Positions 1-19,121 of a stretch of DNA of 20,000 nucleotides are shown one piece after another. A model generated the notes under the pieces. It had not been told where the DNA came from. It saw only the letters and a program-made list of their open reading frames with translations, and did not search any database. The translations under genes and the position numbers were made by a program. The DNA comes from Psammoneis japonica (lineage: Eukaryota): NCBI GenBank assembly GCA_008632985.1, contig QPGO01000303.1:44792-64791 (forward strand), given 5' to 3'. The number at the start of each line of letters is the position of its first letter. The stretch's first letter is position 1.

Positions 1-1239
1 GATGAGGTGGATGACAAAGAAAGCAGCAGCAACAGAGAGCCTGCTGCAAATGTGCAAAGATTTGCTGAAATGTCAATGAGATGCAAACAGCGGCAAAGGA
101 TGCTGCAAAATGTCTTCATTGCAAGTCTTTTGTGAGACTCTCCAAGTCATGAAGGAAACTTTGGATGCTGCTGACTGTGCAGCAGCTGCAGCTTCAAAGC
201 TCTTCTCATTCAAAGATTTTGGCTTGTCATCAGTGTTTCCAGAGAGCCGCTGATGGTCACTTGTGTGTGGCTTTAACGTGATCCCCTTGGCAGCCAAGGC
301 ACCATTTCATGCCTCTTCTGTGGATCCCCATGCACCAGGAGTGGCCAGGACTGGAGGTTCAAGAGCCACCAATGCCTCTGGCAACTGAGCTGTGTGACTT
401 GCCAATGCAGTTTTGACACAGATCAGAAGGAATGAGAATGTGAAGAGATGTCTAGAGAGAAGCCAGCCAAGAGAGCTGCAAGCTCAACTCTTGATTTTTC
501 TTTGGGTGGGTGATTGTGCAGAGCTGCCCTTGATGTCAGCAGGCCCAAGTCAGCGCCCTTTCTTCTGCTGGGGCAACAGCAAACAGAAAGTCAGAGCAAG
601 TGGCAGCAGCAAATTGGTTGGTTCTTGGGGGCTCTCAAATCACCATTTGTCTTTCTCCCAAGTGTCTGGCAGTCTTGGGGCAGGGAAGAGTGTTTCTTCC
701 CCGGACACTGGCAAAGTTCAACTTTTCAATGTGCCAGTCAACACATCTCCAAATTCTTGGAGATGAGTGTGCACAATGTCAGGAGATCAACTGGAGCTCA
801 TTTGACCAGATGTGCCAACCCATGTGCATTGGGTGTGAGATGGACTTGTGAGCAAGTGGCTGTCCATCACATGCAAGCTGCGCACTGCTGTGCACTGCAC
901 ACAAACCAGACATGCAGCATGCGCGGCTTTAAGCTGTGCTGTGTGCTTGCTGTGAAAGCAGCACAAATGGCACATCACCTGAAGAAAATTGCTCAGATGG
1001 CACAGCATGTGAACCTTCCATTGCAGCAAAGGGGCTGCTGGATGCTGTGATCAACTGTGTGGAGGAGCCCAAGGTTGGGGTGTTGTGGACAAAGTCAGGG
1101 AGCAGCACTGTGGCACAACTCTTGGCCATCACCACCCATGATGTTGCTTCCTCACACAACAAGGCCACAGCCAGCCCTGCTTGAGTTTGTTGCTCTCAGG
1201 TGACTCATCTTTTTGCTTCTAAAGTTGGTTGGACAATTG

Positions 1240-2300
1240 GCAGGCCAGCGCTGCTGTGGTTTTGCCAGCCCACTTCCCCCAGCAACAAACATGCCAGGTG
1301 AATGGATGGCCCCCTTCATTGCCCAGCTCTTCATCTTGTGCACATTTGTTGCTCCAATGAAGCAAGGTGGACAAGCCTGCAACAACGCCATTTCCCAGCA
1401 CCACACAGACAAACCTGGCACCACACAGACAAACCTTTTGCATTGCAAGGAGCAGGTTGGGAGTGTTTTCTGATGTGATTCTCACAGAGAGCTCCATGGC
1501 CCGACCTGCTTGTGGTGTGTCTTGGGGGGCAGTGTTGGGCAGTTTGCATGGCTTGTGACTGGACCAATCACTGGCAATTTGCAGCTTGGCATCTGCAAGC
1601 AAGAAGGAAAAACACAGGGGGGCAGGATGCTCACTCTGTGACTTGCAGCAGAGTTGCTTTCAACCATGTGTGCACTTCTTGTGCCTTGCACATGGTTTCC
1701 ACTCATCACCAATGTGGCACCCAGTGCTGACAAGACACACATGAGATGAGCCAATTTCAAGAGAGCCCAACTTGCCATCAAGGCAATCAGGCCATTGTTG
1801 CCAGGCAAGGTGGCTGCTAAAAATTCAACCCCCCCCTGCTTTTCTTCTTTTCCCAGAAGGGCTGCAATTCCACAAGTCCTGAAAGTTGAGCCACTTGCCA
1901 ATGTTGATTTGCAAATGCATTGTGGAGTCTTTCATCAGAGCATGGGTGCAACATGCATGCTTCCTGGTGCCCACCCATGGAGGCAAGCTCATCTTCAAAT
2001 GAGGCACAGAGCAAACCCAAGCTGTGGCCATTCAAAGATTGGGCAGCTCCCAAGTGGCAGCAGATTTTGCATTTCTTCTTGCCCAATCCCAAACCATTGC
2101 ATTGAGAGATGAAACTTGAAGGTGCAGCAACTCAAGCACAAAAGCAAGAGCCCAGAATTTCCTCACATGCTCAAGGCTGAAGTCACCAATGTGCTCATGT
2201 GCTGATGAGGCAGTTGGCAAAAAATGCACCCCTCCATGTGTGGGGCCGCACCTGCTGGCACCAGCACATGCATTTGTCAACACAAGGCTTGCATGCTTCC
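1240..2300 (-). pseudogene. Decayed C5-cytosine DNA methyltransferase-like domain (copy B)
   Basis: Motif I 'LVLTNACAGAS' (~2290-2255) becomes AYAGAG if TG>TA and CA>CG are reverted. Then III 'HIGDF' (~2190), IV-like 'LLHLQVSS/QCNG' (~2130-2092), VI-like 'ASFEDE' (~2005-1988), IX 'GLSVWCWEMALLQACPPCF' (~1415-1365; compare LSVRE.A.LQ.FP..F, with tgg-gaa explained by cgg-gaa) and X-like 'AMKGAIHSPGMFVAGGSGL' (~1322-1265). The motif II region looks deleted. Confidence 0.45.
1398..1436. repeat. Tandem duplication, 20-bp period (GCACCACACAGACAAACCT x2)
   Basis: Exact 19-mer at 1398-1416 and 1418-1436. It frameshifts the putative MTase motif IX region. Confidence 0.95.
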
Positions 2301-2949
2301 ACAACAGTCTTGAAGTGAAGCTCATCATCAAGTCATTGGCAATGCACCCCACTTCAGGTTCAAGAAACAACCAAGCTGGCTGGCCAGTGCCTGAGAGCAT
2401 GGCTGCCAATGACACTGTGAGTTTCCAAGAGACAAGCCTGCAGACAATTTGTTGTTCAAGACAGTGCCCATGAAAGGGAAGGTGCAACCCTGCCCAGGTG
2501 CACCAAACTGCTTCACAGCTGCAATGAAGGTTCTTTTGCCAGAGCAGGGGTTGAAAAAAGAGCCAGAAACATCTTCAAAGGAAGCCAAGCGCCCCCCAGT
2601 TTACAAACACCAAGTCTCCAGCGACAATGTGCTTGAGCATGTTTCACCACCACAATGCTTTTGGTTGGCAACAAACAAGCCACGACCATTGCAGACAAAA
2701 AAGAGAGCTTTGGGAGTGGGCGCCTCTCCACAAGGCAAAAAGCCTTGACCAACTTTTCTTGGCAGGCACACAGTGTGCATTTCCTTGGCTGTGTGCTTCT
2801 TCTGGCTTGACTCATTTGTGTCCTGAATGATCATCTCACAAAACACAACCATGCAGGTGTTCCTTCAATGAATTAACTGCAAATGTTTTTGAACAGCGCT
2901 GCTCCCCCACAGTCTTTTGTTTGCTTTGACTGTGCATGATTTGAAATGC

Positions 2950-4000
2950 TCTTGTTCAAGGGCTTTGTGGTCATCTGTTGTTTTCTTGACAACGGGCTCA
3001 GAGAAACATCCCTTGCTGAAAAAAAAGCCTCCATGTCAGCCATTTGAGCTGCAATGCAGAGCATGTCTTTGGTGTTCAGCACATCATGTTGGGGCTCACA
3101 CCACCAGCATTGAATGCCTGGGAAATGCCTCGCTTTTCTGTGGTGTGAGTCAGCACATTTTTGAGGCCAATGGCAGCATCCTGTCTTGAGTGTGCAACAT
3201 TGAGAGGGTTTTGTTTGCCCAGTCTGCAAAACAACAAAAATTGACCACCTGATGTCTGCCTTTGCAGCCCTCATGATTGTTCGCACTGGCCATGATTGTT
3301 TGTGGCCATTGAACCCACCACAAATTGTTGGGGCTGGCCATGGCACAACAGCATCAAATTGCCAGAGCACTGCACCCATGTCACTTGATTTTTTGTTGAG
3401 CGCTGCACCCGTCACTTGATTTTTTGTTCTCAAACACCACGCAAACCTCCCTTGAGCTGGCAAACAACTCACCCAAGCTTTGTGCTGCAGACTCTCTCTC
3501 ACAAACACATTTTGCCAAGCAACTCAAGCATGGCAGGTGCTGCCACCTCTGCTCCTCAACCAAAACATCATTTGCACGTGCACATTGCCATTTGTCTTGA
3601 CGGCAGTCTTGTGCTCATGAGATGCTCCTGCTTCTGGGTGAACGAGACTGTGTGGGCACAATTGGCAAAAGAAGAAAATCTTTTTGACTCAAAGCAGGGG
3701 GGGTGTTGTGCAGCATGAACTTGCTCTTTTGACAGCCTCACACCAGCCAAAGAGCAGAATTTGGAAAAGACAGACTTTCTGTCAGTGTCTCTTGGCGTCT
3801 CCGCCAAGTCAATGATGACAAGCATTGACCTTGATGACGTCTCTGCATTGCAATTTGCAAGAAGTCTTGTTGCAACAGCATCTGCAGAGTCTCTTTCCAC
3901 ACATTTGCCAGGTGTGGAGACCAGTGTTGTGAGCAGCTCCAGCAGCAAGAAAAGAGCCGTGAGAACAACCATCTGGCTTGCGCAAATCTGACGTTTTGCT
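2950..4000 (-). pseudogene. Decayed C5-cytosine DNA methyltransferase-like domain (copy A)
   Basis: Motifs appear in canonical order across frameshifts: I 'VVLTALF/AAGAAHNTGL' (~3970-3920), II 'CVERDSADAVATRLLAN' (~3905-3850), IV 'VHAAQHPPC' (PPC at 3702-3694), VI-like 'VLVEE/EVAAPAMLELL' (~3570-3510), weak VIII-like 'LPAQGR' (~3460) and a TRD-like 'PAPTI' (~3338-3323). Boundaries are approximate. Confidence 0.5.
3365..3428. repeat. Imperfect tandem duplication, ~33-bp period
   Basis: GAGCACTGCACCCATGTCACTTGATTTTTTGTT is followed by GAGCGCTGCACCCGTCACTTGATTTTTTGTT. Confidence 0.9.
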
Positions 4001-4351
4001 TTGACCAAGTTGGCTGTCATTGTGTTTCATGATCACTTCTTTGGAAAGACCAGCGCAGCTGCACATGACACATGGAGAGAGAGTGCTCCTCAGAGAGCTC
4101 AGCAACAAAGAGGAAAGAAGCGCAGGCTTGAACCCGGCACAGTTGCTTTGCTTTGAGCCACAAAGGAGGGGGGAAAGTTCCCCAGAAAGGAAGTGAACCA
4201 AATCAATGCTTTGACATGGTCACCCATTTCCCACCATTGTTTCCATTGCTTTACAAAATTAACAAAATTGTTGGCAACAAACCAACACTGTGTGGTGTCT
4301 TGTGGTGGTCTCAAGGTGAGAGTAAAACAAGCTGTGCTCGGTGCTCGACAG

Positions 4352-4526
4352 NNNNNNNNNNNNNNNNNNNNNNNNNNNNNNNNNNNNNNNNNNNNNNNNN
4401 NNNNNNNNNNNNNNNNNNNNNNNNNNNNNNNNNNNNNNNNNNNNNNNNNNNNNNNNNNNNNNNNNNNNNNNNNNNNNNNNNNNNNNNNNNNNNNNNNNNN
4501 NNNNNNNNNNNNNNNNNNNNNNNNNN
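4352..4526. other. Assembly gap (175 N)
   Basis: Run of N. Confidence 1.
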
Positions 4527-4592: not shown

Positions 4593-5930
4593 ATGCTGTC
4601 GATTTTCATTAGTTACCTGCTGGCAAACACGCTGTTTGTTCAAGGCTTCACGCTTTCGCGGTCAACGTCCCGCAACGGCGTCGTACCGCTTTCATCCGCG
4701 GCTTCAGATGACGAAGAAAAGCGAATGGAAATGGTTCGGCAACTTCAAAAGACCTTTTACAACTCTGCTGCTGATGAACAAGACAGACCGCAACTGGAAA
4801 AAGAGACTGGTCGAGTCACGAATCTTCCACTGTGGAGAGTCGGGTGGATTGAAGTTCCCGGACGAGCAAATTGTTTGAATGTGCACGAAGGTCACTACAC
4901 CAACATGTTTGAAAAAATCATTTCTGGACCAAAGCCATGGTATTTTGGTCACTTGCATCTGCCTGGGGGAACCAAAGCCGCCCGAACAGGTGAAAAGCGT
5001 TTTGAGCTCAAGAGCTGGCGGGACGAAATCCAAGACACGGATAGGTTTGATCAAGAGGAGCGATCGGCAGTTGTAGGGTGTTTAATGCGTATCACAGACT
5101 TTCGGCGACTTCAAGACGGACGGCTCACGATATTAGTTCATGCTCTGGAGCGATTTGTGGTGGATGAGGTTGTGGAATCCTTTCCACATGGTGTTGCTCA
5201 TGTACAGATCCTACCAGATACAAAAGACATGCCGACTAAGGTTGACGAGAATTTTGGCAAAATTGCCCGGGCAGATGCGGTAAGGCGATCCTTTCAATAT
5301 CATGATTACGAATGCGATTCAATAGAACTGCCACTGCCAAAAGATACAGAATACATGTCAACACAAGACGTGGGTGTGTATGGATTGAAAATTGCAAAAT
5401 GCTTGCCATTCGCCTTTTACTCCAAGAATGACACGTCTTTGGAAAGAATAGAACCCGTCAGTAGCCGCTATGACGAAGGTAATTGTAGTTTTGCAGGTGG
5501 CCAGCCGCTACTGGAGGAAAGATTGCAAGCGGACTTGGTCCTACGAAACCCTCCACCGCTTCCTGGTGTCAAGAGCCAAACGTCACATGACGCAGACGCG
5601 CTTGAAAAGTTCATCTGGTTGGCATTGGATGATTTTTGTCGAGTGTCCGATTTTGTTCTTCCAGAAGAAATACTGTGTCTGTTGCCTCCCGACATGGAAT
5701 ACCTTGACATGGGCCATCCAAAGCAGTGCTTGTCAGACAAGTACCCCAAGCAGCGCCGGCAGCGTAGACTGAGCTACCACTTGCCAAAATTGATCGAGAA
5801 CACAAACGTTGGCGCCGCGATTCCCATGCGGCAAGTCTTGTTGAACACACCGAGCACACAAGCAAGACTAGCGGCAGTGTTGGAACGCTTTCAGTTGATC
5901 AATGATGCCGTAATGGGACAATTTCAATAA
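4593..5930 (+). CDS. Lon protease N-terminal (substrate-binding, PUA-like) domain protein, probably plastid-targeted
   Basis: ATG at 4593, 445 aa. Hydrophobic signal peptide ending VQG-F, then an S/R-rich transit-like stretch (diatom ASAFAP-type bipartite presequence). Lon-N-like motifs 'LPLW...VPG...LNVHEGHYTNMFE', 'VGCLMRITDFRRLQDGRLTILVHALERFVV' and C-terminal 'RQVLLNTPSTQARL'. No AAA+ or protease domain. Confidence 0.8.
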   Translation: MLSIFISYLLANTLFVQGFTLSRSTSRNGVVPLSSAASDDEEKRMEMVRQLQKTFYNSAADEQDRPQLEKETGRVTNLPLWRVGWIEVPGRANCLNVHEGHYTNMFEKIISGPKPWYFGHLHLPGGTKAARTGEKRFELKSWRDEIQDTDRFDQEERSAVVGCLMRITDFRRLQDGRLTILVHALERFVVDEVVESFPHGVAHVQILPDTKDMPTKVDENFGKIARADAVRRSFQYHDYECDSIELPLPKDTEYMSTQDVGVYGLKIAKCLPFAFYSKNDTSLERIEPVSSRYDEGNCSFAGGQPLLEERLQADLVLRNPPPLPGVKSQTSHDADALEKFIWLALDDFCRVSDFVLPEEILCLLPPDMEYLDMGHPKQCLSDKYPKQRRQRRLSYHLPKLIENTNVGAAIPMRQVLLNTPSTQARLAAVLERFQLINDAVMGQFQ

Positions 5931-6226: not shown

Positions 6227-7771
6227 TCATTGGCCAGTCTTGGACTCTTCTTGTGCCAACTTGTCTTCCTCCTTGACGATCGCTGGCTCTTGGACCGCAT
6301 CTTGCTCTTTCTTGGACTGAATCTGCTTCAAGTAAACTCTTGGGTCAAGTTTTCCAGAAGCAATTTGCTCGGCGATTTCAACCGGCGCAGCATTGGCGGG
6401 GTCCTTGATGGTTTGGGAATGCGGTGCTTCTTGACTGAGTTTCGGTGGAGGTTCTTCTCCAACCTTGCTCACGTCTCGGGGTTTCCAGTACTCATCCTTT
6501 TTGTTTTCAAAGAACTCAACCCACGGTGCCCAGTGGTCCTTCTTGACGTACGACAGTGGCGGCGCCCCACGGCAGTCCACCACGTTCAGTAGCCGTTCGT
6601 CAGCCTTGAGAATGAGTTCTACACATTCAAAGCTCGGCTCGGCTGTCCAGCATGCGTCATGAAGTGGCGTTCTGCCAAAGTCATCCGTAACCTGCAGGGA
6701 GCAACCCGCGTCCAGCATAACCTTGAGAAGCTTGGCGTCTCCCCGTCGGCAGACCATGTGTACAGCAGATTCACCAAAGTTATTGCATGGATTCGGACTG
6801 AGACCGCAGTCGAGCATGTCTCTAAGAAGAGTTTCGTTGGAGGCGCGGATCGCCTGTATCACTTTGATGCCGTAGGATGCCTTTTGCAGAGGTGACGGTT
6901 TGCAGTAATAGCCACCCTCTAACGAACAGAACTTCTGATTCGAATACCCTCGTGAATCGATAATTTTGTCCAAGCACTTTTGCGGAGAAACCTCGGCCTT
7001 TTCAATAACCTGCAGAGCAAGCAGAGTGAAAAGCACAACTTTGTCAGACTTTGGCATACGAAACTTGTCTGTATCTGTTTACGCTATCGTACGTACCGCT
7101 GATGATGATAATGACCTAGGTATATCTGTTTTCCCACCCACAACTTTGCGATACTTGTAGCTACTCCCCGACAAGTCACTCGGTGCACTATTGACACGCG
7201 AACTGAGTCCCCCCTCGCTCGTGGTTTTGATTTTGTTTTGCTGTTCCACAATACCTTGAGCTCGTACCGTGGCTCGGCTCGCGGATGAATAAAAGCGTGG
7301 CTTGGAAGGTTGAGGCGCAATCTTTTCGGGTGGCAGTGTGAAACCTCCACTGGGAGCAAACGCAATCTTATTGGAAGTCCGCAGCAATGCTTCCGTGGCA
7401 GGTCGCTTCATGCCCGCTTTGGGAGAGCGAAAGGATGCCGTTTGATTTGAAGCGTTCAGTTGTTGCTTAGAAGCAAGTCGAGCCACTTGATTTTGTGGTT
7501 GCTGTTGTTGCTGTTTTGCGTTTTCTATTGTGGGTGGAGGTTGTCCAGCTGTCGTGACTGTGATTGGGTATGCTGTTGGTAATGTTGTGGATGTGTTGTT
7601 TGCGTGACTGATGTGAATTAACGTGGGCGAAGGCGTCACGGCTGGGATCTGAAACCCAGCGGCCTTTGCTTCCTCGGTGGGGCGAATCAAGTGTTGCGGA
7701 CCATTGTTGCTAGCATTGCTACCGGGAGCAGTCGCTGTAGTGCAAAAGAATGGTCCTGGTGCCGATGCCAT
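6227..7771 (-). CDS. Ankyrin-repeat protein, two exons (7771-7097 and 7009-6227), about 485 aa
   Basis: Ankyrin motifs 'NNFGESAVHMVCRRGD' and 'TDDFGRTPLHDACW' with a low-complexity P/T/Q-rich N-terminus. The two ORFs join in frame through a phase-0 GT-AG intron. Confidence 0.88.
7010..7096 (-). other. Spliceosomal intron, 87 bp
   Basis: Donor GCG|GTACGT at 7096, branch-like TCTGAC, pyrimidine tract, and acceptor TTGCTCTGCAG|GTT at 7010. Removal joins ...SSSA to VIEKAE in frame. Confidence 0.85.
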
Positions 7772-8038
7772 TTTGCTGTGTTGTTGTCCTTACAGATTAG
7801 AAAATTGTCTTCCCGATTGTGGTCTTTGTGTGCAATCCCAAAGCAGCTGCGATATGGTTGAAACTGAAGAATACAGATCCATCTGTGTGCTGCAGATGTT
7901 GTTGACAGTACTGGAGCTCGATCGCATGCAAAGAACATCGGGGGTGATGTGTTTTGTTGATCACGTCACATCAGATCAGCTGTGAAGGGCCAAAAGGCCA
8001 ACAGCAGGTCGATTTTGTTGCGACGTGGTCGCTGCGAC

Positions 8039-9004: not shown

Positions 9005-9652
9005 TCATGCAGCAATCGCCACTCCCTTTGATGTGTTGCTGTCTAAACTAACCATTTCCTGTTGAGTAGCAGTGCTCGATGCCTTCTCCATCATCCTCAT
9101 CATTGATGCATCAAGTCGGCTTCGACCTGGTGCTGGAGCAGTCAGGGAGCGTTGATCGGCCAATCCCATTTGGTTGGCAAATATTCTGGCGTTCTTTGAT
9201 AGCAATTGGGAGACTCTTGCCAATTGGTCGCTATTGACTCGGCCAAAGTGCTTTCGTTGAACTTCTTGATCATGAATGACAGCCTTGATAGCTTGCTGCT
9301 GCGAACGCTTTCTTTCTGAACCGTGCCTTCTGCAGCACCACATTTCTAAACCTCGTCGAGACACTAGGCGTGTCGTCCACTGCTCAAGAACTCGTTGCGT
9401 CCGTTGTCTTGACGTTGCTCTTGTGTTTCCAAAGGTATTGTCAAGGATGTTGCTACAGCTCGATTGTCTCGATTCCCGTGCGATCATTTGGGCCTGTAAC
9501 TTGAAAGTATCGTAATCTTCACTACTCCACCATGACTCGTCATCATCGAACTGTGTTCTACGAATGTCGCTCTCGATGTAAGTCTTTTCTTCTTGGAAGC
9601 GCACCCTGCATCGATGCGTTTGCGTTTCTTGTTCGTTATCTTGATTGCCCAT
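9005..9652 (-). CDS. Hypothetical protein of the diatom-type 'V.F...WW...Y...RGLE...A..MG..D' family
   Basis: ATG at 9652 gives 215 aa. Motifs RVRF, WWSSEDYDTFK, SRRGLE and 'QLARVSQLLSKNARIFANQMGLADQ'. There is a clear paralog at 19344-20000 and an upstream CCAAT box at ~9831. Confidence 0.8.
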   Translation of the reverse strand: MGNQDNEQETQTHRCRVRFQEEKTYIESDIRRTQFDDDESWWSSEDYDTFKLQAQMIARESRQSSCSNILDNTFGNTRATSRQRTQRVLEQWTTRLVSRRGLEMWCCRRHGSERKRSQQQAIKAVIHDQEVQRKHFGRVNSDQLARVSQLLSKNARIFANQMGLADQRSLTAPAPGRSRLDASMMRMMEKASSTATQQEMVSLDSNTSKGVAIAA

Positions 9653-9929
9653 GTTGACGGCTAACAAAAAAGGAAAGAGAAAGGAACTGATGGGACTGCT
9701 AAACAGTAAAGTGGTGTGTCGAAAAGGGGAAGGGGAAGAGATGAACGGTGAACAACGAGAAGTTGTTCTTTTGTCAAATACCCCGACGCATTCTCACACT
9801 CACTTCTCTTGGGCGTGACCCTCCTTTTAGCCAATCACATCTCGTGAAAAAATCGGGACAGATGACCAAAGAAGGGACATTTGGTAAGTATCAGATTGAA
9901 TGAGAAAACATGATTAGAAATCGCTCCCA

Positions 9930-10979: not shown

Positions 10980-13900
10980 ATGTTTGAGAAGACTCTGACA
11001 GATGTAGTCAAGGGCATTCGTGCCTCCAAGCGAGATACGGCTCTCTACATTTCTCAATGCATTGCCGAAATCAAGGTCGAAATCAACTCGACTGATCCTT
11101 ATGTCAAGGCGAACGCACTGCAAAAAATCACATTTCTCCAAATGATGGGGTACAGCATGAGTTGGGCCAGCTTTGCTTCCATTGAAGTCATGAGCTTTCC
11201 CAGATTTGCGCACAAACGAATAGGCTATTTGGCGGCGTCACAGGGCTTTACTCAAGATACCGATGTAATTCTCCTGACGACGAATTTACTCAAGAAAGAA
11301 CTTCGCGGAGCTGTCGGTGGGAGTATGAGGGGTGTGTATGAAGCTGGATTGGCGATCAACTGTCTGTCAAACATTGTCACAGAAGACTTGGCAAGAGATT
11401 TACTACCCGAAGTTACAAACCTTACAAAGCACCCTCAACCTTACCTGAGAAAAAAGGCGGTTTTGTGCCTCTTCAAACTGTTTATCAAGTACCCTCAAGG
11501 CTTACGCTTGACCTTCGCGAAGGTGCAGCAATGCTTAGATGATCAGAATGCCTCGGTTGTGTCATGCGCAGTCAATGTAATTACCGAGCTCAGTGACAAG
11601 AATCCCAAGAACTATCTGCATTTGGCCCCTGCCTTTTCCAGCTGCTTACATCGAGTAGTAACAATTGGATGCTCATCAAGGTGGTCAAGCTTTTAGGCTC
11701 GCTTGTTCAGGAAGAGCCGAGACTGGCGAGGAAATTGTTGGAACCGCTAGCAAACATTGTCAAATCGACTCAAGCAAAGTCACTTCTTTACGAAGCCGTC
11801 CATACCATTACGCTCTCCTTACCATATTGCAGAAAAGCCGACGGAACAATGCCGCCATCCGTTCCAGGCATCGTTACCCTCTGTGCTCAAACGTTACGCG
11901 AGTTTGTGGAGGAATCCGATCAAAATTTAAAGTATCTGGGGTTGGTGGGATTTGGATCGCTCATGGCGTCTCATCCAAAGGTTCTAATGGCACCGGATTA
12001 CCGCCCACTCATCCTGGCATGCCTCAGTGATGAAGATGTCACTATCCGCACCCGCGCTTTGGATTTACTAGGCGGAATGGCATCCCGAAAGAACTTGCGC
12101 GAGCTCGTTTCTCAGCTTGTCAAGCATGTCGAACTCGCGACTGGCGAATACAAGAATGATTTGGTTCTCAAGATTGTAGAAATGTGTTCTTCGGACAGAT
12201 ACGCCTTGCTGCAAGATTTTGCGTGGTATCTTGATATTTTGCTGGAACTAGGACACGAACGCGGTATTGACGTTCATGCCGAATTATTAGCCAATCAAGT
12301 ATCAAATGTCGCGCTGCGTGTCCTTCCGGTTCGAGCTTATGCCGTGCAACGAGGCATGGAGGTTTTGTATGAAGGCGAGAAATCAAGGAAAGTCCTCCAA
12401 GGCAATCTAGGAAATGCTGAAGAAGACGAGGATACTTTTGCAGCAGATAACGGACGTGGGAAGCATATAATGCCGGAAATACTTCCTTCTGTGGCGTGGC
12501 TTGTTGGAGAATACTCTGATTTAATTCGCGACGCCGACATAGACGAAGAAGGCATTGCCGCGATGCTTAAGACTTACAAGGGACTCTATCATGGGACAAT
12601 TGAATCTCTCTTGGCTCCATCCAATACCCAGGAACTTCAAACTACAACTCAAAGTGTCTATGTGCAAGCCGCAATGAAGGTATTTGCGGCTGCCACGGGC
12701 GATGGCAAGGTTTCTGGGAAAGAGCTAGAATGTTGCGTGGAGTGTCTATCGAAGTATTTGCCATTGTACATGCAGAGCACCAATGTGGAAGTGCAGGAAC
12801 GTGCGTTTACTTTGTACGAGCTGCTTCGCGCTGTCGACATTCTTTCGGACGGTTCTTTTGGCGCAGACATGCCCAATCTGGCTCTTCTAGGAAACAACGA
12901 AGAAGATTCTTCGAGTGACGAAGACAGCGCTGGCGGTGGCCTAGAAGGCGATTTGCTTGGAGTAGGATCGGGGTCCAGTCAGGGCCAGAACAAGAGCACA
13001 AAGAAGAAAAAGAGCGTAGCGGCTGGTGCATCTTCTTCTGTTTCCTCCAGGTGCCGAGCTGCGTCGTCCACATTGCAATATCTGCTCAAGCCAGAACCAA
13101 TGAAGCCTATTAGTGCCAAAGCTCAACGAAAGAAACGACAGGCGCCTATTGGCTTTTCAGCGGAAGTTTTAGATGCGCCGGTCAACATGGATGTGTTTGC
13201 CGACCTCTTGGAGGAGGAGAGGACGCATCGACCAAGTGGTGGAGGACTGGTTAGCATCGAGTCTGTGAGTTTTACCCAGCAACGACCTTTACGAAGCGCC
13301 GCAACCGCGACCCCGGCACCAAACGTTGGACAACCTTTTACTGCTGTACAGCCATCAACTGTAAGCGACGGCGTAGGCGGTAACACCTTTCCTTCCGGCT
13401 TCCAATCCACTACCGGGGGAATGGGAGAAGCGGGAACCCTTGCCCCTCAATTGAACCGTCCACCAAACCAGCATGGCCCGTTCTATCTCAATTCAGGAGG
13501 TGAAACTAACATGGATGTGGAATCCCGTGAGCAACAGGGCAACGTGTTTGGAGCCATCCAATTGGTCGACAGTGATGGAGACGAGGATCATGAAGTTAGC
13601 CCAAAAAAGAAAAAGAAGAAACAGCGTAAGAAGGACCGAAACCGGAAGCAAAAGAAGGGGGATGCAGCTACGACCCAGATAGGTTTGGAAGATTTTACAA
13701 TTCTCTCCATGACAGATACGTCTCAGAAACCATCAGCAGCCATGGATTATACTGTTTACGGAAGCGACGAGGAGGAGCATGGAGAAACGAACCATGCTCG
13801 TGGCTCTATTACGGGGCGTAGAGGAAGTGGGATTGTCAACAAGGAATTTGACTCCCTCTCAAAAATTGATTTGACTACACCATTGAGGGAGGACGAAGTC

Positions 13901-15049
13901 ATGCCGACGAGAGAGCACCATGTCGTGGCTGAGCGACCGCAGCCGGAAGCAGGTGGTGGAAGATCTTCCGACGCCAAGAAGAAAAAGAAGGAGTCCAAAA
14001 AGGCAAAGAAAGCCGCATCCAAGAAGCGCCACGGAAAATCAAAGGAAGAAACCGGCGCAACGGATTCTCAAGCGACAACGGGTGATCTGCTCGATCTCGG
14101 CATGTTCGCACCAACTACAGCTGCTCCCGCTACTTGCGCAACAAAAGAACCGGTAGCAATGCAAACTACGGACAACCCAATAAGTACAGCTTTTGACGAC
14201 TTGCTGGGATTGACGACGGAGTCTGAAAGCAACGTCGTTCCGCCAGTGTCTGCTTCCCGCGATGGTTTTGAATCGCTTGGTGGTTCATCTCCATCTCCGC
14301 TACCTGCATCCGCACTATCAGGTGCCATTCCGTCCACCAAGTCGTCGGGCAAGCATCCATGGTTGAAATGCACAGTCAAAGCATCCGGCGGTTCCGGTAT
14401 TGTCGATTGGGAGAAAGTGTCTGTCTACTCAAAAGTGTACCCGCACTCTGGAGGTGCTGCAGCCATGATCAAGATCAAAGTCGTAAACGAGATGGAAAGC
14501 GTCGCTTTGGAAAATGTCGTTATCAAGCTTAAAGGAAAGAAAACACAAGATATTGTGGTCGGCATGATTTCTCCGGGAGGAAAGGGGGAATCCTCAAAGT
14601 CGGGTCCCATTCCATGCGATGCACTTCAAGGATCGGCGACTGATATTCGGGGATCCATTGTCTCGACCACAGGTGATTCTTCTGTTTCGTTCAAGTTGAC
14701 TCTTCCGGCCACGCTTGGACTTGTTGCAATGCCCGGGTTGTCACAAGAATCCGTGCTTTCAGAGCTGACAACTGGTCAGTGGTCTTCGCACTCTGTGACG
14801 ATTCAAGCATCCTCCGCCGATGGAAAGCGAGTAAAGTCTATTGTCGGCTCCTTTCTTCAAGCTGCTGAAGTTGAGGGCGAAAGCAGTGATTCAATGTCGG
14901 GAACGTTTGCTGCAAGTTTGCCTGGATCTGCCGTGCAAGTGCGAGCGCTTGTCAAGGTGAAAAGCTCATCGGTAAAGGTGGACCTCAAGTGTACTGACGC
15001 GAGCTTGGGCAAGGCGGTGGCAAAGGATCTCAAAAAGATTGTCTTGTAA
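10980..15049 (+). CDS. AP3D1: AP-3 complex subunit delta (delta-adaptin); one apparent 1-nt frameshift near 11635
   Basis: Canonical N-terminus MFEKTLTDVVKGIRA, 'KRIGYLAASQ', 'LLTTNLLKKEL', 'NVITELSDKNPKNYL' and 'DQNLKYLGL'. Adding one T to the run at 11634-11637 restores the conserved 'APAFFQLLTSSSNNWMLIKVVKL'. A Lys-rich hinge and ear-like C-terminus follow. Confidence 0.95.
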
Positions 15050-16383: not shown

Positions 16384-19121
16384 ATGGCGCCAGTAGAAGA
16401 GGAAAACGAAAGTGTCGCCGCACAAGCAGCGACGAGAATCAGAATGCTTGCTCCCGGATTCTCCGCCTCTGAGCAATGACGAATCAGAGCAAGCTATAGA
16501 CGCCGACAAGAACAAATCTCAAGCTCTTCCAACAAATGATCCAGAAGCTACTGGCAATGAGTCATCAAAACGGACGCTTGTAGAGGCCACTGAGTTGAAC
16601 CAAGTTCTCCTGCTCCTGATCAGGCAACGAAGGAATCAAAAAGTGCTACACAGCATAAGTCAGATCAGACTTGTCCAGAGCCCATGGATTCTGAGGCTAC
16701 AAGCAACGCGTCATCGAAACGCACACTTTTGGATTTCTTTGGCTCTCCTACTCAAGCAACCAAAAAAAGACCCAGACAGGTACCCAAAGGCGTGCAACAA
16801 GAGGCTAAGGCAACAGAACGTTGGGAGAGCCCACGGATTCAGAGCCTGCAAGCAAGGAGCCGTGTCTCCTCCTTCTGATAAAGCAGTAAAGGAACCGGGA
16901 CAGGATTCTAAGGACACTGCTGGTAAAGAAGACAAGAATCCTGCATCCGCTGCTACAATTATTATTCCGAGTCCAATTGTTCCCGAGTTGGTCACGAGTC
17001 CATCGCGTGCCGCTTGGGTCACTCGACGCGATTGCCTGATTGTACGAAAAGACAAGTCCGCAAAGGAACATCGCACCAAGGCGGCTGCCTTTGATTTGGA
17101 TCAAACCTTGTTGCTATGGAGGTGTGCGGGGTGGCCATCCAAACCCGAGCATTATGAACTATGGTCTGCAGAGGTCATTCCCAAGCTACAGCAGCTCTCG
17201 GACGACGGATATCAATTGGTCATTTTCTCCAATCAAGGCGGCATCCGATCTGCGTTCAACGGAAAGACTGCGTCGCGTGCCAAGGGATTGATTGAATGGA
17301 TTGCGTCAAAGCTGAACAAACCATTGTTTGCGATTCTGAGTACAAAATCAAAGTCGGGGTATCACAAACCAAGTCCGCAAATGTGGGAAATCGTTGAGCA
17401 AGAATGCAACGGTGGAGTCCAGTTTGATTTGGAGCAGAGCTTTTATGTTGGAGACTCGGATGGCGAAGCGGACGGCAAGAACGATTCCTACCAAGAACAG
17501 GGTGTTGACAAGATGTTTGCCGAGAATGTTGGTAAATTGCGTAGTCAAGTTCTCCGGTTTCAGAATCCTGTACAGTTCTTTGGACGAGTGACTTGGGACG
17601 ACGTCAAGAGGCCAGGCTAGACGCGAAGCTGTCCAGCATGCCGTACGAGACTCCTCCGGAATCGGCATTGAAGACGCGAGCCGCTCTTTTAGGAGGCTAT
17701 CTTGAAGGAAATATCATGCTGATATTGTGTGGGGTTCAAGGCTCGGGAAAGTCCTATTTCTGTAAGGAACTCACCCGTCTTTCAAAGTGGGTGCATTTGT
17801 CACAAGACACGATTGCAAAAGGCAAGCCCGGCAAGCGAGAAAAGGTTGAGAAAGCGGCTATTGAGGCCTTGCAAAAGGGTGACTCGGTAGTAATCGATCG
17901 GATGCATTTGGATGTCCAGCAGCGAAACTACTTTCTAGAGGTGGCAAAAAATGCCGGCGACGTACCGGTGCACGTGTTGTGGCTCAATGCACCAAGGCAT
18001 CAAGTGGAAGAGAGGGTTCGATCTCGCACCGACCACCCCGGTGGAGTACAGGGAGAGCGCGGTGCAAAGATGGCAGTGTCCTTCATGGAGAAGCTCGAAG
18101 CCCCGAAGTATCAAGAAGGCTTTTCTTTGTGAGCATCGCTTCCAACCCAGAGCCGTTGCATCTTTCTGTCAACTCTACAGTCAGATGTGTCCAAAAGACG
18201 TGATTAGCTCAACTCCGGGCATGAAATCGCACTTTGAGTTGTCGCCGTACAAGGACGGAAAGTCTTCAGACGTACAGCTGCCATCTTTGTCACTTGGGAC
18301 GCAGAAAGTTGGAAAGCGTGTGGCGTCATCCGTCGTTTCACTCGCGCTTCAAAAAGGATTCCGTGCTGTCGACACAGCTCCCACCTATAACAACGAGACC
18401 GAAGTTGGTGGCGGATTGTCGAACCAAGACGGGGTAGTTGTCGTTGTGAAGGTCCCGAAAAGGGCGACGCAACCCTCGGATGTTCGTGACGAGATAATGT
18501 CAAGTTTGAAAAAGCTGCAATGCGAGAATGCTGACTTGGTATTGTTGCACTGGCCTTGTGACTTCATCGAGGCTGATTCTCTTGGAGCGTATGGAAGACT
18601 TTAGAGGAAATGGTTTCCGAAGGCATCGTCAAGCCTTGGGCGTGTCGAATTTCTCGGTGGGTGCCTTGCGATTTCTTTTGCCTCTATGCGAGTCTGTGAT
18701 GCCTGTCGTCAACCAGGTGGAGCGTCATCCACTGTTGCCGCAGTGGGAATTGCTAGACTTCTGCATCAATCACAATATTCTGATGCAAGCACACACTTGC
18801 CTTGGACAGGGCCGCGACGAATTGCTGCAGCATCCCACGATTGTCAAAGTCGCCACTAAAGCGAATCGCTCCCCGTCTCAAGTATTGGTTGAATGGAACT
18901 TGAAACAGAACGTGGCTGCCGTAGCGAAGTGTGCATCAGAGGAGCATATGCAAGAACTCCTGAAAGTGTTGACTGACGACGCGTCGCTTGATGTCCATGC
19001 TATGAAGGCGTTGGACGGTATTGGGACAAGCGAGGCGAATTGCTTACGGTTTGTTTCGCCGCCCTTCATGTACAAGCCGGACGCTCCTTACTCCTGGGGC
19101 GCACGAATGCCGAAAAAGTAA
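16384..19121 (+). CDS. Fusion of PNKP-type HAD DNA 3'-phosphatase + AAA_33 P-loop kinase + aldo-keto reductase, interrupted by several apparent 1-nt frameshifts
   Basis: Phosphatase: 'AAFDLDQTL', 'LVIFSNQGG', 'YHKPSPQMW', 'SFYVGD', 'DKMFAENVG'. Kinase: 'ILCGVQGSGKS', 'SVVIDR'. AKR: 'LGT', 'DTAPTYNNE', 'VKV', 'DLVLLHWP', 'LGVSNFS', 'VNQVERHP'. Frame breaks near 16435, ~16595, ~16830, 17585, 18120-18150, 18589 and 18633. The start at 16384 (MAPVEEENE) is tentative. Confidence 0.8.

What the first reader, a model, noticed from the sequence alone, without database searches (positions are those of the whole stretch)
1..4351. Repeat block purged of TpA as well as CpG: possible undescribed repeat-targeted mutation process
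Seen: about 8 CG and 3 TA in the first 1200 bp (hand count), a similar pattern to ~4200, a large TG/CA excess, almost no Tyr codons and nearly only TGA stops. Genes beyond the gap use CG and TA freely. Known: 5mC deamination gives CG>TG/CA, and diatom repeats are CG-methylated (DNMT5). That does not remove TpA, and fungal RIP (CA>TA) creates TpA rather than removing it. Inference: a second context-specific transition, TA>TG/CA (A>G after T), acts on silenced DNA, for example adenine deamination/modification or biased repair, and drives both dinucleotides to the same TG/CA sink. Reverting both changes restores MTase motifs (tgt>tat, gcc-agc>gcc-ggc, tgg>cgg).
Basis: partly seen in the sequence, partly recalled or inferred. 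Interest (0 to 1): 0.85.

Follow-up and report, generated by a model that had tools for sequence, protein, structure and literature searches.

The report
Diatom DNA block purged of CpG and TpA
A non-coding stretch of more than 4 kb in a diatom genome has lost almost every CG and TA step and gained TG/CA instead; methylation can explain the CG loss, but no described process explains the TA loss.

Summary
Window 1-4351 has 37 CG (observed/expected 0.14) and 10 TA (0.04), with TG/CA at 1.82. The other 15.5 kb has CG 0.97 and TA 0.53. Read as purines and pyrimidines, the block looks like ordinary host DNA. Converting the neighbours' CG and TA to TG/CA reproduces its TG/CA excess exactly; converting CG alone does not. 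So both steps were most likely lost in place, by transitions. TA loss is the more complete and is uncoupled from CG loss: no TA in 3001-4240, while 15 CG remain in 3401-4240. A second variant in one sequencing run differs by CA<->TG doublets and CG->TG/CA changes, so decay is continuing. One other diatom contig of 80 loci has two short, unrelated patches of the same kind. Not supported: repeat status (only about two variants seen), methyltransferase motifs (at chance level) and a 6mA mechanism. No unmutated copy was found, so the direction of TA change is inferred. Best reading, confidence 0.45: region-restricted CpG decay plus a second, undescribed TpA-to-TpG/CpA process.

The parts
1..4240 (.). 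Core of the CG/TA-purged block; continues beyond the left end of the window
   Evidence: CG 35 and TA 7 against about 970 TG+CA. No Pfam family in six frames. No Rfam match above threshold. The R/Y 6-mer spectrum is host-like, r=0.876.
3001..4240 (.). Sub-stretch with no TA at all; in 3401-4240, 15 CG survive
   Evidence: Segment counts and a change point at 3401 (2dLL 11.3). This shows that TA loss and CG loss are uncoupled.
4241..4351 (.). Right edge, where composition relaxes towards normal
   Evidence: 3 TA and 2 CG against 24 TG+CA in 111 nt.
4352..4526 (.). Assembly gap (175 N) between the block and the first ordinary gene
1398..1436 (+). Perfect 20-nt tandem duplication, polymorphic in run X1
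   Evidence: TRF, 2.0 copies at 100%. X1 has a variant lacking 20 letters at 1398 (table 4).
3365..3428 (+). Tandem duplication of 33 and 31 nt. The only substitution between copies is CA versus CG, and an AT indel splits a second CG.
   Evidence: The surviving CG at 3401-3402 reads CA in the X1 variant.
4594..5930 (+). First ordinary gene after the gap (LON substrate-binding domain protein), with normal CG and TA use
   Evidence: PF02190, E=1.6e-12; composition.

Best explanation
The block is non-coding, low-copy nuclear DNA of a diatom. It may be a relic of mobile or silenced DNA, but its origin is not recoverable. Almost all of its pyrimidine-purine steps have been rewritten in place, by transitions, to TG/CA. 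Two separable processes are inferred. (a) CpG -> TpG/CpA, most simply by deamination of 5-methylcytosine in CG-methylated DNA. (b) TpA -> TpG/CpA, an A:T->G:C transition confined to the TpA step and to this region. At equilibrium it must run about 100 times faster than the reverse change (994 TG+CA against 10 TA); the figure for CG is about 27 times (994 against 37). What is shown: the composition, the conserved purine/pyrimidine pattern, and continuing CG decay between variants. What is inferred: that TA was once present and left by transitions, and that the region is methylated. The enzymology of (b) is unknown. Because TA is self-complementary, the change could start on either base. Candidates are adenine deamination by a deaminase that prefers 5'-T/U-A, thymine oxidation (5hmU/5fU type) that mispairs with G, or context-biased repair of T:G/A:C mismatches.
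For: 1. Depletion: see the observation check.
2. Transition signature: the YR share is 0.239 in the block and 0.237 in the rest. The R/Y 6-mer spectrum correlates 0.876 with the rest, inside the 0.61-0.92 range of 12 equal-sized pieces of the rest; Markov shuffles of the block give 0.54+-0.18.
3. Budget: converting 86% of CG and 96% of TA of the flanks to TG/CA gives CA/TG rho 1.83, against an observed 1.83. CG only gives 1.58. Predicted ACA and CCA frequencies are 27.8 and 26.5 per 1000, against observed 27.6 and 26.4.
4. Flanking bases of CA/TG fit a TA-derived origin best and a CG-only origin worst, with three different stand-ins for the ancestor. Chi2 for TA only / both / CG only: 5.7 / 13.7 / 30.3, 33.9 / 45.5 / 74.5 and 15.8 / 26.5 / 48.9.
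5. Uncoupling: TA is 0 in 3001-4240, while 15 CG persist in 3401-4240.
6. Continuing decay: run X1 holds a variant with 133 differing places, 100 of them transitions. Among the 40 listed are 5 CA<->TG doublets, 5 cases of window CG -> TG/CA, 1 window CA -> CG and 1 window TA -> TG. The internal duplication differs by CA versus CG.
7. Region-specific: TA rho is 0.51-0.53 at codon positions 2|3 and 3|1 of the neighbouring genes and 0.73 in intergenic stretches.
8. A process rather than a sequence family: locus L007, from a different diatom, has two patches with the same signature. They are 1-~400 and ~9320-9690; the lowest window has p=5e-8 among 11,551 windows. They share no sequence similarity with each other or with the block.
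Against: No unmutated copy or outgroup was found, so the direction TA -> TG/CA is inferred, not observed. Only 1 of the 40 listed differences is a TA/TG transition, and 93 of the 133 differences were not shown. The CA<->TG doublets could all descend from CG.

The ancestor stand-ins are mostly coding DNA. The block's GC excess (rho 1.38) is general: GCC is 1.36x and GCT 1.49x, not only GCA. GA/TC (0.88) and AT (0.75) are also off and are not explained. This weakens the flanking-base argument.

Methylation of the block was not measured. 79 of 80 other loci show no such patch. In the one diatom with mutation-accumulation data, the mutagenic dinucleotide contexts reported are CG, CC and TG, not TA (P. 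tricornutum; passages of PMC6604790).
Confidence: 0.45

Rival explanations
1. The sequence arrived already poor in TA and CG, as a mobile element, virus or other foreign DNA with this composition. Only ordinary CpG decay has acted on it since.
For: No ancestor is available, so this cannot be excluded directly. The block's GC, GA and AT dinucleotide values differ from the flanks in ways the conversion model does not explain.
Against: Read as purines and pyrimidines, the block is indistinguishable from host DNA. No homologue was found: Pfam 0 families, phage blastn none, the 216-aa ORF had 0 hits among 74 candidates, and phmmer of 1200 aa of one frame had 0 hits among 1.84e9 proteins. About 1000 TG/CA steps would regenerate TA by ordinary transitions. 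With only 10 TA present, the TA-free state must be very young or actively maintained. Unrelated patches of the same composition occur in another diatom. I know of no source genome with TA rho 0.04 (recalled knowledge, not a search).
Confidence: 0.15
2. Only the CpG loss is regional. The TA deficit is the genome's neutral mutational equilibrium, visible here because this is the only truly unconstrained DNA in a compact genome.
For: TA is already halved genome-wide: rho 0.53 overall and 0.51 at codon positions 3|1.
Against: The block's TA rho (0.04) is more than 10 times lower than at mostly synonymous positions and about 18 times lower than in the window's intergenic stretches (0.73). Mutation-accumulation lines of P. 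tricornutum, a different species with 146 substitutions, did not flag TA as mutagenic (passages).
Confidence: 0.12
3. CG and TA are kept out by selection because the stretch has a function. Examples would be an RNA protected from UpA-cutting nucleases and CpG sensing, or DNA that must avoid methylation or nuclease sites.
For: Joint CpG and UpA shortage is known in many viral RNAs (recalled). L007's second patch lies directly downstream of a stop codon, a position like a 3' UTR.
Against: There is no RNA family match and no conserved relative. At more than 4.3 kb it is far longer than diatom UTRs (recalled). The depletion is much stronger than in any selected RNA I know of (recalled). Variants differ by 2-5% with indels, so constraint on the primary sequence is weak.
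Confidence: 0.12
4. Artefact: a contaminant or mis-scaffolded contig joined across the N gap.
For: A 175-N gap separates the block from the genes.
Against: Inside the same contig the composition relaxes towards normal at 4241-4351. The R/Y spectrum is host-like. An independent run holds 80% of the block's sampled words plus a diverged second variant.
Confidence: 0.03

Closest known systems
CpG decay of CG-methylated repeats (5mC deamination); diatom transposons are CG-methylated through DNMT5 (PMC9998398, passages)
   Same: CG -> TG/CA on both strands with no strand clustering. Surviving CGs are polymorphic between variants.
   Different: It does not touch TpA. Here TA is purged more completely than CG, and independently of it.
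Repeat-induced point mutation (RIP) of fungi; diatom DNMT4 is related to fungal RID and its function is unknown (PMC9998398, passages)
   Same: Regional, dinucleotide-specific transition hypermutation of non-genic DNA.
   Different: RIP turns CpA into TpA and so creates TA. Here TpA/ApT is 10/209 = 0.05 and (CpA+TpG)/(ApC+GpT) is 994/466 = 2.1 (counts), the opposite of RIP indices (thresholds recalled). There are no strand-coordinated runs (z=-1.1), and duplication as a trigger is not shown.
Very-short-patch repair in E. coli, held to deplete CTAG by correcting T:G mismatches to C:G (recalled, not read here)
   Same: Net TA -> CA/TG through context-biased mismatch correction; a repair route to TA loss.
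   Different: It is bacterial, tied to the Dcm site context and genome-wide, not regional. No such eukaryotic activity at TpA is known to me.
5-hydroxymethyluracil made by TET/JBP enzymes in dinoflagellates; it silences transposons and in C. cohnii preferentially replaces T in TA and TC (PMC11572971, passages; not confirmed in B. minutum, PMC11071213)
   Same: A thymine modification with a reported TpA preference, linked to silenced repeats. Oxidised thymines can mispair with G (recalled), which would give T>C at TpA.
   Different: A different lineage. No mutational footprint is reported in the passages read, and the presence of 5hmU or TET/JBP in this diatom is untested.
A-to-I deamination by ADAT/TadA-type enzymes with a 5'-U preference (recalled); predicted stramenopile-specific deaminase-SAM-tudor proteins and LmjF36.5940-like deaminases (PMC3239186, passages)
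   Same: Would give A>G after T. Candidate enzymes exist in stramenopiles.
   Different: The known substrates are RNA. The predicted stramenopile enzymes are uncharacterised. Editing of a retro-copied RNA would leave strand-clustered changes and retroelement genes, and neither is seen.

Membership tests
CpG decay of methylated DNA | CpG deficit balanced by TpG/CpA excess on both strands | tested here: met
   CG rho 0.14, TG 1.82, CA 1.83. However, the excess needs TA conversion as well to be explained.
CpG decay of methylated DNA | The region carries 5mC | not testable with these tools
   No methylation data are available for this organism here.
CpG decay of methylated DNA | CG sites hypervariable between copies or alleles | tested here: met
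   5 of the window's 37 CGs read TG or CA in X1 among only 40 of the 133 differences listed. There are also 5 CA<->TG doublets.
Fungal-type RIP | C>T at CpA, producing TpA excess | tested here: not met
   TA rho 0.04; TpA/ApT 0.05.
Fungal-type RIP | Strand-coordinated runs of mutations | tested here: not met
   Runs test on the order of TG versus CA: 480 runs against 497.5 expected, z=-1.11. Many rounds of mutation could erase such runs.
Fungal-type RIP | Triggered by duplication | tested here: inconclusive
   There are two variants at about 34-50x word depth in X1, which could be alleles or two copies. No genome is held to count copies.
Transposable element or repeat | Transposon protein domains or terminal repeats | tested here: not met
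   Pfam 0 families in six frames. There are no long direct or inverted repeats and no tRNA-like part. The element, if it is one, is cut by the window's left end.
Transposable element or repeat | Many copies in the genome | tested here: inconclusive
   Summed contig depth is 42-111 across the block with no baseline depth for comparison. No whole genome is held.
Hyperedited retro-copy (ADAR/APOBEC type) | Retroelement identity and strand-clustered A>G or C>T | tested here: not met
   No reverse transcriptase or integrase; no clustering.
   No Pfam hit at E<=1. Motif counts equal Markov expectation.

The most novel reading that the evidence does not exclude
Some diatoms have a region-targeted hypermutation or genome-defence process with two arms. 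One removes CpG. The other, so far undescribed, removes TpA by A:T->G:C transitions. This would be a 'reverse RIP' that drives both self-complementary pyrimidine-purine steps into TG/CA. The TpA arm would be run by an unrecognised DNA-acting enzyme: an adenine deaminase with 5'-T preference, a thymine dioxygenase, or a context-specific mismatch glycosylase.
Probability: 0.25. Interest if true: 0.9.

Novelty: new variant of a known kind. Interest (0 to 1): 0.7.

Why it matters
Regional, dinucleotide-specific hypermutation is known for cytosines (CpG decay, RIP, APOBEC). I found no such process directed at TpA and running from A:T to G:C; five literature searches turned up none. If the TpA arm is real, it points to an unknown DNA modification or repair activity in diatoms, a major group of marine primary producers. 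It would also give a simple computable signature, (CG+TA)/all-YR below 0.1, for finding its targets genome-wide. It could explain how compact diatom genomes inactivate invading DNA. If instead the block reflects selection or an odd source element, it is still the most extreme joint CG/TA avoidance among the roughly 620 kb of eukaryote DNA examined here.

Tried and rejected
- Whole genome of the window: none is held, so copies could not be counted or aligned.
- Homology searches on the block found nothing usable. Pfam on six frames with X at stops gave 0 families at E<=1. Rfam gave only one sub-threshold match, snoR1 at 20 bits against a 49-bit gathering score. There are no tRNAs. blastn against phages found nothing. 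The ORF 2873-3523(-) scored no hit among 74 candidates. phmmer of one 1200-aa frame against 1.84e9 representatives gave 0 hits; the other five frames were not searched this way.
- The 216-aa ORF is about what chance gives when TGA is the only common stop (my estimate from the TGA frequency).
- An R/Y-degenerate 50-nt pattern of the block gave 0 matches in metagenome contigs.
- blastn of the block against the 80 loci and against the rest of the window gave only chance-level hits.
- R/Y period-3 signal does not separate genes from non-genes in this genome, so it cannot show a coding past.
- Sequencing runs: 3 listed, 1 holder and no RNA holder listed. Runs X2 and X3 laid nothing.
- Earlier scan notes: none for this genome or this sequence. 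The notes found by words describe the opposite pattern, CA/TG-purged phages, and do not bear on this case.
- Literature searches for TpA/CpG co-depletion in diatoms or in RIP-like contexts found nothing relevant. The 'TpA' hit in PMC4504042 is the word 'Tpase'.
- Rejected: a degraded CAG/CTG or TG microsatellite. CAG/CTG is below its dinucleotide-based expectation (227 against 273), and GC rather than GT/AC is the enriched RY step.
- Rejected: a maximum-entropy equilibrium under a CG/TA ban. By hand calculation this predicts a YR share of 0.207 and all RY steps at 0.83; the observed values are 0.239 and a GC step at 1.38.
Full report
**Observation.** The window is 20,000 nt with one N run at 4352-4526.
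- Positions 1-4351 hold 37 CG and 10 TA, against 482 TG and 512 CA. Observed/expected ratios are CG 0.14, TA 0.04, TG 1.82 and CA 1.83.
- The remaining 15,474 nt have CG 0.97, TA 0.53, TG 1.19 and CA 1.13.
- Fisher tests of CG or TA against TG+CA, block versus rest, give p=3e-79 and 1e-64.
- Tyr codons are 0.03% of six-frame codons, against 1.96% in the rest. The + strand has 7 TAA, 1 TAG and 104 TGA.
- The block runs off the left end of the window. A contig of run X1 continues leftwards with 30 further letters free of CG and TA (table 7).
- At the right end, composition relaxes inside the same contig: 4241-4351 has 3 TA and 2 CG against 24 TG+CA.

**Setting.** The flanking genes are ordinary eukaryotic genes: a LON substrate-binding domain protein, an ankyrin protein, AP-3 delta adaptin, a family-2 glycosyltransferase, a polynucleotide kinase 3'-phosphatase and an aldo/keto reductase. 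The AP-3 delta ORF has 461 relatives at E<=1e-20. The best is 50% identical, and every source-named hit I noted among the 120 listed is a diatom. The host is therefore a diatom without a close relative in the protein collection. No whole genome is held for the window.

**What the block is not.**
- Six-frame translation with X at stops matches no Pfam family at E<=1.
- One 1200-aa frame has no hit among 1.84e9 representative proteins; the other five frames were not searched this way.
- The longest ORF (216 aa) has no homologue among 74 candidates. Its length is about what chance gives when TGA is nearly the only stop.
- There is no Rfam match above threshold, no tRNA, no similarity to phages and no long internal direct or inverted repeat.
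- 'Repeat' is not established. Run X1, the only holder, has 0.80 of the sampled words. It shows the window's variant plus a second one; of 38 laid contigs, 21/8/5/4 fall in the likeness classes >=99 / 95-99 / 90-95 / <90%. Word depth is about 34-50 per variant and there is no baseline. These could be alleles or two copies.

**Evidence that CG and TA were lost by transitions in place.**
- The share of pyrimidine-purine steps is the same in the block and the rest, 0.239 and 0.237.
- The purine/pyrimidine 6-mer spectrum of the block correlates 0.876 with the rest. That is within the 0.61-0.92 range of 12 equal-sized pieces of the rest and above Markov shuffles of the block, 0.54+-0.18. Transitions are the only substitutions that keep this pattern.
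- Converting 86% of CG and 96% of TA of the flanks at random to TG or CA gives CA/TG rho 1.83, exactly as observed. Converting CG alone gives 1.58 and leaves TA at 0.44.
- Predicted ACA and CCA frequencies, 27.8 and 26.5 per 1000, match the observed 27.6 and 26.4.
- The bases flanking CA/TG fit a TA-derived origin best and a CG-only origin worst, with three different stand-ins for the ancestor.
- This last argument is weakened by a general GC excess (GCC 1.36x, GCT 1.49x) and by low GA/TC and AT, none of which the model explains.

**Two processes, not one.** From 3001 to 4240 there is no TA at all, yet 15 CG survive in 3401-4240. TA is thus purged more completely than CG, and independently of it.
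- Surviving sites are context-biased. GCG/CGC makes up 45% of residual CG, against 25% in the rest, and TCG/CGA 12% against 30%. Residual TA is 65% TTA/TAA, with no ATA/TAT.
- TG and CA alternate at random along the block: 480 runs against 497.5 expected, z=-1.1. There is no sign of processive single-strand events such as one round of RIP or APOBEC clusters would leave.
- If the block is at equilibrium, the counts imply that exit from TA is about 100 times faster than entry, and exit from CG about 27 times (counts).

**The process is recent or continuing.** X1's variant differs from the window at 133 places, 100 of them transitions. Only 40 were listed. In context these include:
- 5 CA<->TG doublets, each implying independent decay of one ancestral CG or TA in both lineages;
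- 5 window CGs that read TG or CA;
- 1 window CA that reads CG;
- 1 window TA that reads TG (position 1819);
- 2 window TAs changed by transversion.

The tandem duplication at 3365-3428 differs between its copies by one CA/CG substitution and by an AT indel that splits a CG. None of this polarises a TA change, which remains the main gap in the evidence.

**The effect is regional.** In the neighbouring genes, TA rho is 0.53 and 0.51 at codon positions 2|3 and 3|1, and CG is 0.92 and 0.96. Intergenic stretches have TA 0.73 and CG 1.05. The block's deficit is more than ten times stronger.

**Elsewhere.**
- An R/Y-degenerate pattern of the block found nothing in metagenome contigs.
- Using an AP-3 delta alignment, I fetched 80 eukaryote loci, 599,919 nt in all.
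- No 500-nt window of 5637 falls below a (CG+TA)/YR share of 0.132; the block's windows are 0.008-0.082.
- One locus, L007, carries two short patches of the same kind. The first, at the contig end, has CG 2, TA 5, TG 36 and CA 32 in 1-300, fading by about 450. The second, at about 9320-9690, is intergenic and lies just after an ORF that ends at 9256. The lowest window has p=5e-8 among 11,551 windows.
- L007's AP-3 delta is 67% identical to a protein that its source names Pseudo-nitzschia multistriata.
- The two patches share no sequence similarity with each other or with the block. That favours a process over a sequence family.
- The other 79 loci show nothing comparable. Many of them are short, or are not from diatoms.

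**Mechanism.**
- The CpG arm is most simply 5mC deamination. Diatom transposons are CG-methylated through DNMT5, and many diatoms also carry DNMT4, a relative of fungal RID whose function is unknown (PMC9998398, passages).
- The TpA arm has no described counterpart that I could find.
Eukaryotic 6mA sits at ApT on active genes, not on transposons, appears weakly mutagenic, and P. tricornutum carried only 5mC (bioRxiv 10.1101/2024.10.28.620566, passages).
- Three leads remain, none tested:
  - Thymine oxidation. TET/JBP-made 5hmU silences transposons in dinoflagellates and was reported to prefer TA and TC in C. cohnii (PMC11572971). This was not seen in B. minutum (PMC11071213).
  - Uncharacterised stramenopile deaminases (PMC3239186), together with the 5'-U preference of ADAT/TadA enzymes (recalled).
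  - Context-biased T:G repair, as proposed for CTAG loss in E. coli (recalled).
- Mutation-accumulation lines of P. tricornutum flagged CG, CC and TG contexts, not TA (PMC6604790). Any TpA process is therefore regional or lineage-specific.

**Verdict.** The repeat status, the silencing, the adenine chemistry and the methyltransferase relic are not supported or could not be tested. The rivals are an already TA-poor source element (0.15), a genome-wide neutral TA bias (0.12), selection (0.12) and artefact (0.03).

Noticed in passing
window 10980-15049 (+): The AP-3 delta adaptin gene is read as two overlapping ORFs, 10980-11696 and 11669-15049, each matching one part of Adaptin_N. This points to a short intron or a frameshift near 11670-11696.
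   Followed up: no
window 17951-19121 (+): The aldo/keto reductase is likewise split into two overlapping ORFs, 17951-18604 and 18528-19121. An intron is the likely cause.
   Followed up: no
window 7251-8000: Strongly strand-asymmetric TG excess: 64-75 TG against 20-27 CA per 500 nt. It lies in and beside ORF 7079-7771(-), which has no Pfam family.
   Followed up: no
window 1398-1436 and about 3631-3703: Structural polymorphism inside the block in run X1. One variant lacks one copy of the perfect 20-nt duplication. A joint 3703->3631 with 6 extra letters suggests a roughly 72-nt tandem duplication variant (tables 4 and 5c).
   Followed up: partly
L028 about 1700-3100: A long array of imperfect repeats of about 120 nt, apparently coding, which gave a mild TG/CA excess. 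It is not a purged block.
   Followed up: partly
L006 6901-7411 (contig end): A CG-only depleted stretch with TA at normal level, 0-3 CG and 11-12 TA per 300 nt. It is a useful contrast that shows what CpG decay without TA loss looks like.
   Followed up: no
L071 2951-3309: TG-rich stretch at a contig end that looks like a microsatellite, with 67-77 TG against 7-12 CA per 300 nt.
   Followed up: no
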